A stretch of DNA of 54,809 nucleotides from an uncultured Prevotella sp. (GTDB taxonomy: Bacteria; Bacteroidota; Bacteroidia; Bacteroidales; Bacteroidaceae), in contig CALNBT010000053.1 in the NCBI GenBank assembly GCA_937874345.1, positions 1 to 54,809 on the forward strand, written 5' to 3'. The position numbers were made by a program, and so were the translations under genes. How positions within the stretch are numbered: position 1 is the stretch's first letter; each line of letters opens with the position of its first letter. Under the pieces are notes generated by a model. That model did not search any database and was not told the origin of the DNA. It was given only the letters and a program-made list of their open reading frames with translations. Positions 10,941 to 52,088 of the stretch are shown piece by piece.

Positions 10941-11966
10941 CTACCTTGTGGTTCCTCTAATAACAAGTCTGGTACGGACGATTCTCTTCTCTACTAAGTC
11001 ATGAGGTAGATTACCTTCTACCTGACTGATAAGGATGTCGGCAGCCTCTTCGCCTACCCGAAATCCGCGTTGTTCAACAGTGGTCAACATCGGATCGCAG
11101 GCAATGGCACGTTCGCCATTGGTAAATCCGCAAATAGAGATATCATTCGGCACACGAAATCCCATTCTTTTGGCCGCATAAAGAATACCGATAGCAGTGT
11201 CATCGTTTACAGCAAAGAATGCATCAGGACCCTCTTCAATCTCCAATATTTCTGGGGATATCCGTTCTGCCTCTGCCCTATTATCGCAGATTCTGAAAAA
11301 GCGCTGATCTTCCTTGAGTCCATTTTTGATGAGCGCATCACGATATCCATTATATCTATTCTTCGATATTTCCATGTTCATGGATGATCCATAATATGCA
11401 ATCCGCCTGCAACCTGTTGCAATCAGATGAGACACGGCATTAAAAGCGCCCAGATAATCGTCTACTACAACCCTGCTGCAATTAACTCCTGTGCAAATAC
11501 GATCGTAAAACACCAAGGGCATACCATACTCGATGAGCTTTTTAAAATGGTCGTACTGCTGGGTGTCTTTTGCCTGAGAAACGATAATGCCACAAACCTT
11601 GTTCTCAAAGAAATCCTCGCAGATGCGCACTTCCCGCTGATATTTCTCATTGCTTTGCGCCACCATGACTCGATAGCCGCGTTCGTTCGCCTCTTCCTCA
11701 ATCCCCGATAAGATGGTCGAGAAATAGAAATGAGCAATCTGAGGTACGATAACACCGATAACTTTTACAGGTTTCACCTTACTATATCGCAAAGACTCTG
11801 CTATCATATTAGGTATATAATGATGTTCGTGCGCATAAGTCTGAATACGATTGCGCTGTTCTTTACTGATCTGCGAGCTATCTTTCAATGCACGCGAAAC
11901 AGTTGCCACAGAAACACCCAGTTCCCGTGCGATATCTTTCATTGTGATAGACGACAAAAAACTCAT
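10941..11966 (-). CDS. LacI/GalR-family transcriptional regulator (MalR-like)
   Basis: HTH ITMKDIARELGVSVATVSRAL, hinge YIPNMIAESL and a periplasmic-binding-protein-like sugar domain (LTTVEQ). Divergent from susC. Confidence 0.92.
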   Translation of the reverse strand: MSFLSSITMKDIARELGVSVATVSRALKDSSQISKEQRNRIQTYAHEHHYIPNMIAESLRYSKVKPVKVIGVIVPQIAHFYFSTILSGIEEEANERGYRVMVAQSNEKYQREVRICEDFFENKVCGIIVSQAKDTQQYDHFKKLIEYGMPLVFYDRICTGVNCSRVVVDDYLGAFNAVSHLIATGCRRIAYYGSSMNMEISKNRYNGYRDALIKNGLKEDQRFFRICDNRAEAERISPEILEIEEGPDAFFAVNDDTAIGILYAAKRMGFRVPNDISICGFTNGERAIACDPMLTTVEQRGFRVGEEAADILISQVEGNLPHDLVEKRIVRTRLVIRGTTR

Positions 11967-37183: not shown

Positions 37184-37960
37184 CTACCTTTTGAAAAGGC
37201 TTCGAATAGCGAACCAGATATGCATACACACCGTTAAAAATAGTCCATAATGTTCACGCATCACCGCGAAACGTTCTTTCAAGGACGAACGATGATTTTT
37301 TGTTGTCATACCTCCATCCAGGAAGTTAACGACAACAGCATGTACATTCTTCAGCTCTAATCCCTGTTGCTGGGCATCCCTCATGATACGAATACACCAA
37401 TCAACATCTGCAGAATAACGATATTCAAGTCGATAGGGATGGCGTTTAGCCAAGTCGACCCGTGCATAAAAGGCCTGATGACACACCAACATGCCACGCA
37501 TAAATGAACGCCAAGAAAGCTTCTTGGGGGGAGACAGTCTTCGATGGCGCAAAAAACGTCCATCGTCATTTACAATATCTGTATCGCCATACAGCACGCC
37601 CGGATTCTCCTCATCTTCACCTACACAGCCCGCAATATGTTCCAACGTATCAACATTTGGGAATACATCTCCTGCATTCAAAAAAACAAGATAGTCACCA
37701 CTAGCTCTCTGGATGCCTTTATTCATTGCATCATATAAGCCTTTGTCGGGTTCTGACCAAACCAATATTTCATGTCTGCTCTCTTGGTTAATAGACCGAG
37801 CTTCATATTCGCGAACAATCTGCATGGTATTATCTTTCGATTCGCCGTCGATAACGAGATGTTCTACTTGTGAGTATTCCTGACTCAAAACGCTGTCAAG
37901 CGTCTTTTGAACCTCATGTTCAGCATTATATGTACAGGTGATTACTGTAAATTTGATCAT
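37184..37960 (-). CDS. GT2 glycosyltransferase (WcaE-like)
   Basis: Motifs IDGESKD, SEPDKGLYDAMNKG, FLNAGD, CHQAF and SADVDW. Confidence 0.88.
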   Translation of the reverse strand: MIKFTVITCTYNAEHEVQKTLDSVLSQEYSQVEHLVIDGESKDNTMQIVREYEARSINQESRHEILVWSEPDKGLYDAMNKGIQRASGDYLVFLNAGDVFPNVDTLEHIAGCVGEDEENPGVLYGDTDIVNDDGRFLRHRRLSPPKKLSWRSFMRGMLVCHQAFYARVDLAKRHPYRLEYRYSADVDWCIRIMRDAQQQGLELKNVHAVVVNFLDGGMTTKNHRSSLKERFAVMREHYGLFLTVCMHIWFAIRSLFKR

Positions 37961-39234
37961 TTTAATTTTTCTTTGAACGACAATTCTTGTTCATATAGTT
38001 CAATATAACGCAAAGCCACATGACCTTGTGCATAATGAGCATGAACCTTTTTGATGCATTTTCTACTCAACTCTTCATAGTCGGTAGATTTATTCAATAT
38101 CCATTGTATTCCTTCTGCAAGCGATTCGGAGTCCTTGAAGCGGGCTACGAAACCATTAGACAGATGATCGATCATCTCAGGAATGCCACCAACATCAAAT
38201 CCAACACAAGGAACACCACACGCCATAGCTTCCATAATGGTATTGGGTAAGTTCTCTGATAAAGATGGAAGAACAAATACATCCACGGCATTGTACACAT
38301 CAACAATCTTGGATGTATCGTTGACATAACCTAAGGAATAGGTAGGAAAAGCAAATTTATCTAATAACTCTTCTGCATGTCCACCCAAAATCACCAAGCC
38401 TATCTGCTCCTTCGCTTCGGGTTGAGCTTTCACCATTTTTTTGCACGCATCAATTAAGTATTGAATGCCCTTATTAGCGTTTGTAATTCGCTGAGATGCA
38501 AAGAGAATCAACTTTCTATCGGTTGGCAAGCCTAAACGCTCGGCAGCTTCTTTCCGGTTATGGGGTGCAAAAACTTTTGTATCAATGGGATTGGGGATGG
38601 TTGTGATGGGGAAATGCTTTAGTAACCCGCTCTGTCTTGCCTGATTGCCCAGCCAATCACTGCAAGTAACAAAGTGTATGCGTCCTTGTGAATATACATT
38701 CTTTTTCCGATTCCAAATCTTTGCTGACAGATCGCGAGCAGACCCGCCGCCAGGCAGATATGGGCAAAAATTGCAATAATCTTTAAACCGTTCACAACTT
38801 AAAGCAAGATGGCAAATTGCTGTTGCAGGCCAAATATCATGCATTGTCCAAACCAGAGGTTTACCACTCTTAAGAATCTTTCGAATGCTCTTCAAGGACA
38901 ACATTCCTTGATTGATCCACTCCAATTGAATGACATCAGCTTCTTTATACTCAGGTAATGAGGTAATATCAGATCCGATATTCGCTATATCCAAATCAAA
39001 AAGATGTCGGCGAGAAAGCCGTAAATGCAAAAAAATGCACCATCGTTCCCACAAAAAATGCCAGCATTTCAATGTCTGGTGTGGCAATTTGACAACTGTC
39101 AACTGATTCGTTTCTTGATCACGCACAAGCATCTTAGCCTTCACACCTTCGTTATTCAAAGCTGTCATTAACCGGTTTGAGGCTAAAGCAGCCCCCCCCG
39201 TTTTCTCGCTTGTATTGACAATTAAGACACGCAT
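37957..39234 (-). CDS. GT4 glycosyltransferase (WcaC-like)
   Basis: GT-B motifs TGGAA, WTMHDIW..TAICH and ENLPNTIMEAMACGVP. ATG at 39234; overlaps the GT2 start. Confidence 0.88.
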   Translation of the reverse strand: MRVLIVNTSEKTGGAALASNRLMTALNNEGVKAKMLVRDQETNQLTVVKLPHQTLKCWHFLWERWCIFLHLRLSRRHLFDLDIANIGSDITSLPEYKEADVIQLEWINQGMLSLKSIRKILKSGKPLVWTMHDIWPATAICHLALSCERFKDYCNFCPYLPGGGSARDLSAKIWNRKKNVYSQGRIHFVTCSDWLGNQARQSGLLKHFPITTIPNPIDTKVFAPHNRKEAAERLGLPTDRKLILFASQRITNANKGIQYLIDACKKMVKAQPEAKEQIGLVILGGHAEELLDKFAFPTYSLGYVNDTSKIVDVYNAVDVFVLPSLSENLPNTIMEAMACGVPCVGFDVGGIPEMIDHLSNGFVARFKDSESLAEGIQWILNKSTDYEELSRKCIKKVHAHYAQGHVALRYIELYEQELSFKEKLK

Positions 39235-39628
39235 CAACTGATTTTTTGAACGATAGCCATGGGCTGGCTTCGGTATTCATTGCATTTCGGCATGACAGAA
39301 ATATTCTGTTGTTGGTTTAAAAACTGATGGTAAAGTTACATCAAATCGTATAAACGGACAAGTATTTAATCATTTTTGTTAAAACCAGCACTTAATTGTA
39401 TTTAGCTGCGATAATGATATCTCAATCCAAATACCGTATCTCATAGATGGATCATCACGATTCTTGATAGATTAGTTGGCATACATCATCTATCATAGAG
39501 GTAAAATAGTACATAAACAAGTACATGGGCGTTGCATGATTCTGTAAGAATTTAACAATGTGCGGGCACACAACTCTTTTGACATAGGTCAAGAAAACGT
39601 CAAAATTGGGGATTATCTCATCAGTTCA

Positions 39629-39660
39629 CTTGCATTGAATGAGAAAAGTGCATATCTTTG
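39629..39660 (+). promoter_or_regulatory. Sigma-A promoter of the candidate sRNA
   Basis: CTTG at 39629-39632, 20-nt spacer, TATCTTTG at 39653-39660. Confidence 0.65.
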
Positions 39661-39665
39661 CATCA

Positions 39666-39856
39666 CCAAAAGGTTAATAGATTGTTTAGGTTAGTAGTAA
39701 TAGATTTAGGTTTTTAGTTATTAAGTTTAAGGTAAATTAAACAGATTGTTTAACAGGTATCAATGAAGACCGTGAGGCTTTCATTTACTTAGAAAAGATT
39801 TTTAGTTAAACATACTTTACGCTGCAGCTCGTTGAGAGTTGCAGCGTAATTTTTTT
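39666..39856 (+). ncRNA. Candidate small regulatory RNA (~190 nt)
   Basis: Has its own promoter and no usable ORF. U/G-rich repeated motifs, a GUGA-loop hairpin (39762-39785) and a strong terminator. The next gene has a separate -7 box at 39886-39893. Confidence 0.6.
39817..39856 (+). terminator. Intrinsic terminator closing the candidate sRNA
   Basis: TTACGCTGCAGCTC pairs with GAGTTGCAGCGTAA (14-bp stem, one G:U), followed by 7 T. Confidence 0.85.
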
Positions 39857-39914
39857 AATTAATCGATAGAATCATTTTTTTTATTTATCTTTGTCCATAT
39901 AATGATTTCAGAAA

Positions 39915-41228
39915 ATGATAAAACGGCTTATCCTATTACTGGTAATGGTTTGGACGTTACAAATATTATCTGCCCAACAGATTGATCAGCGCATCGGACA
40001 ATTGTTAAACACCTCTGATTGGTTTGGGTTGCAAGAAGAATTGCAATCCAATGGTGATGCGATACAAACGCCTTTTTTAAAGCTTTTGGCCGAGACAATG
40101 ATGGCTTATCACGCCAATCAACCCGACAAAGCATTGGTCTGCCTGAACAAACTTCTTGAAAATCACCAAACCGACTTAGGAATCTCGAATGTCGTGAATC
40201 TGCTCACACTGAAATATATCATTCTGAAGAGCATCGGGGCTTACCAACAGATGGACCGCGAATTAAGCATTGCCATCGAACAACTTAAAAAACAAAACGG
40301 CGCAGAAGGACTGGAGATGCTTGAAAACCTCTTTAATATCAACAAGCACTGTATCGGTTATCAGCCCTTGAGTATTTCAAAACCGGCATACGATGTAACG
40401 GTTCCCTTGACCATCGACACCATTCAAGCCAAGCAAACGCTCGAATGGTTTCATCAAAGCACTGCCGATCGCGGGCATATCATGACCATTCCCGTAACGG
40501 TACACGGACAAAAGCATGCGTTTATCTTCGATACTGGAGCCAGCGGTACTTATCTGTCGATGCGTAAAGCAAAGCAATTGGGCGTGAAAATATTTAACGA
40601 CACCACTGTTGTTAACGGCAAAATGCTCATACACGAAGGCTATCTTGACAGTCTTCAGATAGGAAACATCACCATTAGAAACCTCCTTGTATACGTCGGT
40701 ATGCCCAGTGAGACCGACAGTGTCTTCACGTTCGATGCCATCCTGGGCCTTGATTGTCTCAAAGCCATCGGCGAATCACAAATCAACTATGCAGCCCGAA
40801 AGATTGTTTTTCCGGCCCACCCAACCCCGGTTCCGTTGACAGGAAGCAATCTTCTGATCGACAATATTCCGATGTTCAAGGCATATCGGGGGCAGGAACG
40901 ATTGATTTTCAAGCTCGATACCGGTGACGATTCGGCCGAACTCTCACCACGTTATTATCAGACACACCGCCATGAAGTTGACCAATACGGTGTTGCACAG
41001 ACAATCACCAAAGGCTCGTACAACGACATTTCAAACAAACGGGTGGCACTCATCCCGTATATCACATTCGAAGTGGGTTATCGAAAGATGACCATTACCC
41101 CTATTTATGTGTCGACAGATGTCACCGACGCGATGAAACAGAACGATGGTGTCATGGGAATGAAACTGATCCGCCAAACGCGTAAAGTTACCATTAACTT
41201 GAAAGATATGTTTCTGAAATTGGAATAA
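39915..41228 (+). CDS. Secreted tandem retropepsin-like aspartyl protease
   Basis: Signal peptide and helical N-region; two clan AA domains, FIFDTGASGT...AILGLD and FKLDTGDDSA...GVMGMK. Confidence 0.8.
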   Translation: MIKRLILLLVMVWTLQILSAQQIDQRIGQLLNTSDWFGLQEELQSNGDAIQTPFLKLLAETMMAYHANQPDKALVCLNKLLENHQTDLGISNVVNLLTLKYIILKSIGAYQQMDRELSIAIEQLKKQNGAEGLEMLENLFNINKHCIGYQPLSISKPAYDVTVPLTIDTIQAKQTLEWFHQSTADRGHIMTIPVTVHGQKHAFIFDTGASGTYLSMRKAKQLGVKIFNDTTVVNGKMLIHEGYLDSLQIGNITIRNLLVYVGMPSETDSVFTFDAILGLDCLKAIGESQINYAARKIVFPAHPTPVPLTGSNLLIDNIPMFKAYRGQERLIFKLDTGDDSAELSPRYYQTHRHEVDQYGVAQTITKGSYNDISNKRVALIPYITFEVGYRKMTITPIYVSTDVTDAMKQNDGVMGMKLIRQTRKVTINLKDMFLKLE

Positions 41229-51951: not shown

Positions 51952-52088
51952 TAATTCCTAAAATTATACTACTAAAAAACGTTTTTTATTCGTACAGACG
52001 ATTCACTAACTGTAGAGCTCGGCCAAAAGCACCACTATTAACACTTCTGCACAGGGGACTCTAAGTCAATCCCCAAATAATCGGTCTG

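What the first reader, a model, noticed from the sequence alone, without database searches (positions are those of the whole stretch)
39629..39893. Stand-alone, ORF-less ~190-nt transcription unit built from repeated U/G-rich motifs: candidate sRNA
Seen: a consensus promoter (CTTG-20 nt-TATCTTTG at 39653-39660) precedes a poorly structured region with four related motifs. These are AATAGATTGTTTAGGTT (39676), AATAGATTTAGGTT (39699), ACAGATTGTTTAA (39741) and AAAGATTTTTAGTT (39794). Then come a CC-GTGA-GG hairpin (39762-39785) and a 14-bp terminator with 7 T. The downstream protease has its own -7 box (39886-39893), so this is unlikely to be its leader. Inference: a trans-acting sRNA or a multi-site sponge for an RNA-binding protein. 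Bacteroidota lack Hfq and use RRM proteins, and paralogous PUL-regulating sRNA families are reported in Bacteroides. Whether this RNA belongs to one of them cannot be determined here.
Basis: partly seen in the sequence, partly recalled or inferred. Interest (0 to 1): 0.8.

Follow-up and report, generated by a model that had tools for sequence, protein, structure and literature searches.

The report
Genus-wide GibS/FopS-like small RNA family
This is a real non-coding RNA gene, kept in almost every genome of its genus and missing from Rfam, that likely switches off sugar-import (SusC) genes by pairing just ahead of their start codons, under two conserved upstream control boxes.

Summary
A covariance model finds the ~192-nt element (predicted 39665-39856, +) in 98 of 100 same-genus genomes, in 1-6 copies. 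Its hairpin and terminator covary, its 5' 60 nt are almost invariant, and the downstream gene varies, so it is not the protease leader. It reaches no Rfam cut-off; the best weak hits are GibS, BTnc231 and FopS, and three true FopS lie elsewhere in this genome. New: two upstream palindromes, TTGAY-N4-RTCAA 60 nt before the -7 box (32 of 34 loci at one position) and a LacI/KdgR-type box (22 of 34), both shared with FopS copies, paralogues and small-protein mRNAs. An RRM sponge is unlikely as a general role: RRM genes were found in 5 of 80 relatives. Best mechanism (inferred): pairing with susC leaders; 13 of 30 relatives' leaders carry a 9-nt or longer perfect match against 3.8 expected, but this genome's own susC set (2 of 15) and a wider secreted-protein test did not replicate. 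A discrete transcript was not shown. It may be an already listed, uncharacterised Segatella copri sRNA; that table was closed.

The parts
39559..39572 (.). LacI/KdgR-type palindrome, degenerate here (2 mismatches to TGTnTGCGCAnACA), about -106 to -93
   Evidence: same position in 22 of 34 loci; same box between kdgR and kdgK
39579..39592 (.). TTGAC-N4-GTCAA palindrome 60 nt before the -7 box; likely activator site, factor unknown
   Evidence: 32 of 34 loci at one position; composite pattern in 18 of 18 same-genus genomes, reversed control 0
39629..39632 (+). -33 element (CTTG)
39653..39660 (+). -7 element TATCTTTG
   Evidence: conserved in alignment A1
39665..39856 (+). predicted sRNA, 192 nt
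   Evidence: ends inferred, not mapped
39668..39740 (+). C-free, nearly invariant U/G-rich 5' domain with two repeats (39676-39692, 39699-39712); predicted seed region
39704..39727 (+). main predicted seed hot spot (RNA nt 40-63), antisense to susC leader words; a second one at nt 4-14 (39668-39678)
39719..39748 (+). core shared with FopS and GibS, ending in the third repeat (39741-39753)
   Evidence: alignments
39747..39812 (+). possible long-range helix 39747-39753 with 39806-39812; conserved but no compensatory change, so unproven; overlaps the fourth repeat (39794-39807)
   Evidence: helix 1: 0 of 7 pairs change on both sides
39762..39785 (+). hairpin with GUGA loop
   Evidence: helix 2: 6 of 10 pairs change on both sides
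39817..39856 (+). intrinsic terminator, 14 pairs plus U7
   Evidence: helix 3: 11 of 14 pairs change on both sides
39886..39893 (+). separate -7 box of the downstream protease gene (not part of the RNA)
37957..39237 (-). flank: GT4 glycosyltransferase, the usual neighbour of the orthologue
39915..41228 (+). flank: clan AA aspartic protease, not a conserved neighbour

Best explanation
This is a conserved non-coding RNA gene related to the GibS/FopS small RNAs, and it likely acts in trans by pairing its single-stranded U/G-rich 5' domain with the A/C-rich stretch 7-35 nt ahead of the start codon of susC and similar glycan-import mRNAs, blocking their translation. Shown: gene anatomy, conservation, covarying hairpin and terminator, paralogues, two conserved upstream boxes, excess complementarity to relatives' susC leaders. 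Inferred: that it is transcribed as a discrete RNA; that pairing happens and represses; that the repeats are alternative seeds that let one RNA cover many leaders; that an unknown activator at the TTGAY-N4-RTCAA box turns it on together with FopS copies and paralogues; that KdgR, a hexuronate-pathway LacI regulator, tunes it through the neighbouring box (sign unknown).
For: Best three Rfam sub-threshold Bacteroides hits are GibS 29.2, BTnc231 22.2, FopS 19.1 bits; model R1 weakly hits two true GibS loci over positions 55-197. FopS represses susC translation by pairing at the start region (PMC11697453, sections 12, 13). Relatives' susC leaders: 14 of 41 have a perfect antisense match of 9 nt or more (1 of 500 shuffles reach it) against 5 of 232 leaders of non-secreted proteins; after de-replication 13 of 30, 3.8 expected, 0 of 2000; the FopS-unlike segment nt 38-60 alone gives 8 of 30, 1.7 expected, 0 of 2000. 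Duplex energy favours susC over other genes: own genome 1 of 40 shuffles, 8 SusC-like genes of three relatives 2 of 60. Two of this genome's three FopS copies share the TTGAY box at the same 60-nt spacing; the KdgR-type box precedes FopS copies C148, L097, L098, L114.
Against: Own susC leaders show no excess of perfect matches (2 of 15, 1.9 expected). Across all 1886 own start regions antisense words are not above shuffles. The excess for signal-peptide genes (0 of 1000 shuffles) fell to z 1.0-1.5 with stricter starts and did not appear in 400 kb samples of three relatives. No single conserved target was found. The RNA lacks the FopS/GibS 5' end that covers the start codon. The FopS positive control was itself weak (3 of 30), and the Bacteroides-type control was small (0 of 9). 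Relatives are kin, not independent. No transcript ends were seen.
Confidence: 0.55

Rival explanations
1. The RNA is a multi-site decoy for an unidentified, non-RRM RNA-binding protein, in the logic of CsrB/RsmZ (recalled): its repeats copy in sense the AGGU/GGAU words in the leaders of co-regulated small-protein mRNAs and would free them from a repressor.
For: Paralogues vary in module number, up to about 470 nt. 14 of 14 leaders of mRNAs behind the same upstream box hold AGGT or GGAT against 52 of 319 other leaders; 8 of 14 share an 8-mer with the RNA against 36 of 319. GibS and BTnc231 are RbpB ligands in the CLIP table. A small dedicated regulon with several RNA copies fits.
Against: The shared 8-mers are not clearly above shuffles (82, 130 and 38 of 1000 for three orthologues). 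CsrA not found in 5 of 5 genomes. No candidate protein. About 60 invariant nt is more than short protein sites need.
Confidence: 0.25
2. The RNA is a sponge or ligand of the RRM protein RbpB.
For: This genome has one RRM_1 gene; RbpB binds GibS, FopS and BTnc231 in B. thetaiotaomicron.
Against: RRM_1 found in 5 of 80 same-genus genomes against the RNA in 98 of 100; the S. copri preprint also reports the family absent there.
Confidence: 0.07
3. The 5' part is a short translated frame (11 codons from a TTG behind AAAAGG) and the element is a peptide gene or ribosome sensor.
For: A frame of 8-11 codons is present in 21 of 21 aligned rows; co-regulated transcripts do encode ~30-aa peptides.
Against: The changes seen alter amino acids or shorten the frame, none is synonymous; an extra T stops it after two codons in L027-L029 and L041-L043.
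Confidence: 0.06
4. The element is a cis leader or attenuator of the downstream gene.
For: It lies 59 nt before the protease start on the same strand.
Against: The downstream gene differs among relatives and is often on the other strand; the protease was not seen there in 28 loci, judged by N-termini; the protease has its own -7 box; no antiterminator covariation.
Confidence: 0.02

Closest known systems
FopS sRNA family (Rfam RF04319; Ruttiger et al. 2025, PMC11697453)
   Same: Canonical promoter, single-stranded U-rich 5' part, shared core at 39719-39748, hairpin with (C)GUGA loop, multi-copy, shared upstream boxes, predicted susC targets.
   Different: 192 nt against 65-70 nt; lacks the FopS 5' end; has about 50 nt of 5' repeats and an extra hairpin and linker; 19.1 bits against cut-off 56; true FopS exist beside it; mostly no RbpB in the genus.
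GibS (RF04182; Ryan et al. 2020, PMC7366714)
   Same: Layout: single-stranded 5' region, internal hairpin, linker, terminator; weak two-way model similarity.
   Different: 29.2 bits against 115; GibS uses the non-canonical PM2 promoter and sits by the glycogen operon; true GibS loci lack the KdgR-type box.
BTnc231 (RF04180)
   Same: GUGA-loop hairpin and similar terminator loop.
   Different: 22.2 bits against 80.4; 5' region differs.
SrcF / ScnR276 and ScnR157 of Segatella copri (bioRxiv 10.1101/2024.04.05.588293)
   Same: Intergenic sRNAs of the same group; SrcF alters PUL expression; ScnR157 is described as strongly conserved with a conserved promoter and partial synteny.
   Different: SrcF is 272 nt, structured at its 5' end and called S. 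copri-specific, so it is not this orthologue (it could be a paralogue). Identity with ScnR157 or another ScnR could not be tested: sequences are in closed supplements.
KdgR regulon of Bacteroides (BT0487; Ravcheev et al. 2013, PMC3878776)
   Same: LacI regulator in a uxaA-kdgR-kdgK cluster; box between kdgR and kdgK.
   Different: Here the same box also stands at sRNA and small-protein promoters, and KdgR is kept in genomes where kdgK and uxaA were not found. The published logo is a figure and could not be read.
CsrB/RsmZ decoy RNAs (recalled)
   Same: Several copies, repeated words in variable number, a dedicated upstream palindrome.
   Different: No CsrA found; repeats are not in hairpin loops.

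Membership tests
FopS (RF04319) | Score over the gathering cut-off (56 bits) | tested here: not met
   19.1 bits; three other loci of this genome pass
FopS (RF04319) | R1' seed at the very 5' end | tested here: not met
   only the 3' half of that region aligns, behind about 50 nt of extension
FopS (RF04319) | Canonical promoter, single-stranded 5' part, terminator | tested here: met
FopS (RF04319) | Represses susC by pairing at the start region | tested here: inconclusive
   complementarity in relatives, not in own set; no experiment
FopS (RF04319) | Bound by RbpB | not testable with these tools
   RRM_1 in own genome and 5 of 80 relatives
GibS (RF04182) | Score over cut-off (115 bits) | tested here: not met
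   29.2 bits; over cut-off in 3 of 101 family genomes, none of the own genus
GibS (RF04182) | Non-canonical PM2 promoter and glycogen-operon locus | tested here: not met
   canonical -7 box, GT4/ispF neighbourhood
BTnc231 (RF04180) | Score over cut-off (80.4 bits) | tested here: not met
   22.2 bits
SrcF | 272 nt, structured 5' end, S. copri-specific | tested here: not met
   192 nt, unstructured 5' end, genus-wide
ScnR157 or another listed S. copri sRNA | Sequence identity | not testable with these tools
   preprint supplements closed; journal version not held; one paper holds the name
Csr/Rsm decoy RNA | CsrA present in the genome | tested here: not met
   0 of 5 genomes
KdgR regulon | Same box at kdgR-kdgK and a KdgR orthologue present | tested here: met
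   binding itself untested; window copy has 2 mismatches

The most novel reading that the evidence does not exclude
The RNA is the core of an undescribed RNA-centred regulon of Prevotella-like bacteria: an unknown activator (TTGAY-N4-RTCAA, 60 nt before the -7 box) and a KdgR that has outlived its own sugar genes jointly control a family of repeat-built RNAs, FopS copies and small-protein mRNAs, and these RNAs throttle glycan import genome-wide without Hfq, ProQ, CsrA or RRM proteins, or else titrate a new kind of RNA-binding protein. The upstream box would be the site of the regulator that the FopS paper left unidentified.
Probability: 0.3. Interest if true: 0.8.

Novelty: new variant of a known kind. 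Interest (0 to 1): 0.62.

Why it matters
Prevotella-like bacteria dominate many guts and rumens, and only one of their sRNAs (SrcF) is listed as characterised in a 2026 review. An RNA kept in 98 of 100 genomes, with defined seeds, predicted susC targets and two named upstream boxes, is directly testable in genetically tractable S. copri. It also offers candidates for the unknown regulator of FopS and asks how such RNAs work in species that mostly lack RbpB.

Tried and rejected
Rfam at gathering level: no hit here. blastn and model R1 found no close paralogue in the own genome; a diverged one (C264, cut by the contig end) surfaced only through its promoter boxes. C231 first looked like a paralogue and is a 30-codon mRNA. 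Expression: contigs of four RNA runs holding this species covered the flanks and not the RNA, which proves nothing; contigs of relatives in four other RNA runs covered the core at depth 37-106 against 13 for a promoter-spanning contig in X17 (38/17/15 against 10 in X19), but promoter-spanning contigs exist in all four runs and contigs cannot show ends. General start-region targeting: not above shuffles. Secreted-protein targeting: significant once, not replicated. Long-range helix: no covariation. Cur as the factor: its published motif matches neither box, though Cur-like sites lie inside TTGAY-box promoters of genus g27. The one Crp-family gene over cut-off in this genome could not be tied to the TTGAY box. 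Own kdgK has only a weak, distant KdgR-type site and own kdgR none. Paper searches without a description of this RNA or a KdgR-sRNA link: (0 papers); most subscription papers are not held. Earlier-finding look-ups by sequence, words and place were empty.

Full report
OBSERVATION. The terminator has 14 pairs and a T run. The repeat word AGATT[GT] occurs 4 times, 0.39 in shuffles, 0 of 5000 reaching 4 (chosen after the fact). 39668-39740 has 31 T, 27 A, 15 G and no C. This genome's FopS copies begin five bases after the -7 box, which puts the start at 39665. The genus is unnamed in the tools; that it is Prevotella in the wide sense is my inference from the promoter type, the gene content and its place in the family that also holds GibS-bearing genomes.

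CONSERVATION. blastn found the element in 34 of 36 same-genus genomes and only two weak hits, both to the downstream promoter, in 24 genomes of other families; in 29 of 30 same-genus genomes and weakly in 3 of 270 other genomes of the family. Model R1, built from 21 copies, hit 98 of 100 same-genus genomes with 1-6 matches each, training genomes included, and 2 of 132 other-genus genomes weakly. The first 60 nt are almost invariant. On alignment A2, 6 of 10 hairpin pairs and 11 of 14 terminator pairs change on both sides; a proposed long-range helix has 0 of 7. The GT4 gene lies within 1.5 kb in 18 of 28 loci (19 with L025), often with ispF on the other side; the downstream gene varies and the protease was not seen, judged by N-termini. 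So the unit is independent of the protease.

PARALOGUES. Relatives carry further copies with the same start and modules in varying number, some with long 5' extensions or in tandem. Related boxed RNAs occur in genera g36 and g41 and score weakly (16.7-31.2 bits). In this genome a diverged copy lies at C264, cut by the contig end.

KNOWN FAMILIES. No Rfam family reaches its cut-off here. Below cut-off the two best scores are GibS (29.2 of 115) and BTnc231 (22.2 of 80.4), and FopS scores 19.1 of 56, among 13 weak hits. The alignments show a shared core at 39719-39748 and the GUGA hairpin but not the FopS/GibS 5' end. Three true FopS lie on other contigs. Model R1 hits two true GibS loci at 17.5 bits over positions 55-197 and none of the three FopS loci at E 0.1. 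It works like these RNAs but is a member of none.

UPSTREAM BOX 1. TTGAY-N4-RTCAA (window 39579-39592) lies at one position, within 1 nt, in 32 of 34 loci; the other two have it further upstream along with their shifted promoters. Of 46 perfect copies in this genome, 5 lie exactly 60 nt before a -7 box: this RNA, two of three FopS, the C264 paralogue and the C231 peptide mRNA. The composite pattern is in 96 of 151 family genomes, 18 of 18 of the own genus besides G000, reversed control 0. In other genera it precedes a 117-126-aa secreted protein without Pfam or NCBIfam family over cut-off, related RNAs, and glnK behind Gln/Asn-rich leader peptides. It resembles an FNR box (recalled; also so described in earlier findings) but sits at -79.5, not at the class II place. 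The factor is unknown.

UPSTREAM BOX 2. TGTKTGCGCAMACA lies 6 or so nt further upstream in 22 of 34 loci (the window's copy has two mismatches and counts as a miss) and over the -33 region in several paralogues. The central CG fits the LacI family (PMC4052901, passages). The exact box lies between a LacI gene and kdgK in six loci of genera g35 and g30 and, exact or with two mismatches, in 4 of 12 own-genus LacI loci; 7 of those 12 show uxaA-kdgR-kdgK, as BT0486-BT0487 (PMC3878776 supplement). The own orthologue (C161) is 43% identical with the same recognition helix and is in 11 of 11 own-genus genomes. In G132 and G164 all 3 exact boxes sit at promoters of this RNA family; these two and G213 keep KdgR, yet kdgK and the uxaA domain were not found in them. 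Of 16 further own-genus box sites, about 5 precede family-like RNAs, 8 small-protein mRNAs and 3 other genes (by eye). The 14 GibS-model loci examined, which include the three true GibS, lack the box upstream. Binding and sign are inferred.

PROTEIN PARTNERS. RRM_1 is in this genome and in 5 of 80 relatives; CsrA in 0 of 5. An RRM sponge cannot explain genus-wide conservation.

TARGETS. Against: no excess over shuffles across 1886 own start regions; the signal for secreted proteins weakened with stricter starts and was absent in three relatives; own susC leaders 2 of 15 against 1.9. For: susC duplexes beat other genes in the own genome (p 0.012; 1 of 40 shuffles) and in 8 SusC-like genes of relatives (2 of 60). 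Of 70 susC loci fetched, one own locus was dropped, 44 starts were parsed, 41 were distinct and 30 remained after removing similar proteins: 14 of 41 and 13 of 30 hold a perfect antisense match of 9 nt or more (1 of 500 and 0 of 2000 shuffles), against 5 of 232 non-secreted leaders. Matches cluster on RNA nt 4-14 and 40-63, and at -34 to -2 of the mRNA. In genus g27, 30 loci gave 17 starts and 9 after de-replication, with 0 matches; FopS as positive control was weak in both sets. Starts and signal peptides came from my own heuristics.

DECOY READING. The leaders of mRNAs behind box 1 use the RNA's words in sense: AGGT or GGAT in 14 of 14 against 52 of 319, but shared 8-mers are not clearly above shuffles. 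Variable module number fits a decoy. No protein is in sight. I give it 0.25.

EXPRESSION. Not shown. Only contigs were available; see Tried and rejected.

LITERATURE SEEN. PMC11697453: outline, passages, sections 9, 12, 13, supplement search hits (its main supplementary PDF was too large to read). PMC7366714: passages and section 13. bioRxiv 2024.04.05.588293: parts 1-5 of 7 and passages; supplements closed, and they bear on whether this RNA is already listed. PMC13750123, PMC10994844, PMC10861873, PMC7160235, PMC4052901: passages. PMC3878776: passages and supplement hits; motif logos unreadable.

VERDICT. A real, genus-wide, multi-copy sRNA family related to GibS and FopS, not in Rfam, with a newly seen two-box promoter. 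Most likely a base-pairing repressor of susC-type mRNAs (0.55). New variant of a known kind; interest 0.62.

Noticed in passing
G000:C231:13328 (-), and L225, L227, L229, L236, L221: A family of ~25-30-aa hydrophobic peptides behind the same two boxes, with purine-rich SD-like leaders unusual for this phylum; tandem in L229.
   Followed up: partly
L353-L364, L372-L374 (genera g27, g28); L224, L230, L232, L099: A 117-126-aa secreted protein without a Pfam or NCBIfam family over cut-off is the main protein target of the TTGAY box; in g27 its promoter also holds a Cur-like site over the -33 region and its leader is built of the same U/G-rich words.
   Followed up: partly
L376, L379-L381, L370-L371: The TTGAY box precedes Gln- or Asn-rich leader peptides with a terminator-like hairpin ahead of glnK (P-II confirmed for L376), a possible nitrogen attenuator.
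   Followed up: no
L241, L243, L244, L245; L101, L238, L239: DUF2582 winged-helix genes carry a TTGAY box upstream in the own genus; similar small genes carry the KdgR-type box in g36 and g41 (named from likeness, not scanned).
   Followed up: no
G000:C217:6985-7050 (-), C148:8959-9025 (+), C75:11464-11534 (-): Three FopS over the Rfam cut-off in this genome; the FopS paper's main text does not mention Prevotella.
   Followed up: partly
G000:C264:2530 to contig end (+): Diverged paralogue with both boxes and a longer 5' part, cut by the contig end.
   Followed up: partly
L026 (three copies), L024 and G366:C55 (two copies), L069/L070/L228 (~470 nt): Tandem and expanded copies of the family.
   Followed up: partly
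L014, L016, L017, L019, L025, L039: One clade has the RNA inverted between ispF and the GT4 gene, shorter by about 11 nt and without the KdgR-type box, but with the TTGAY box.
   Followed up: partly
window 52000-52074 (-): L13-Bacteroidia ribosomal leader, the window's only Rfam hit over cut-off.
   Followed up: no
window 11808-11945 (-) and 12301 onward (+): A second LacI gene divergent from a susC in the same window; no KdgR-type box scored there.
   Followed up: no
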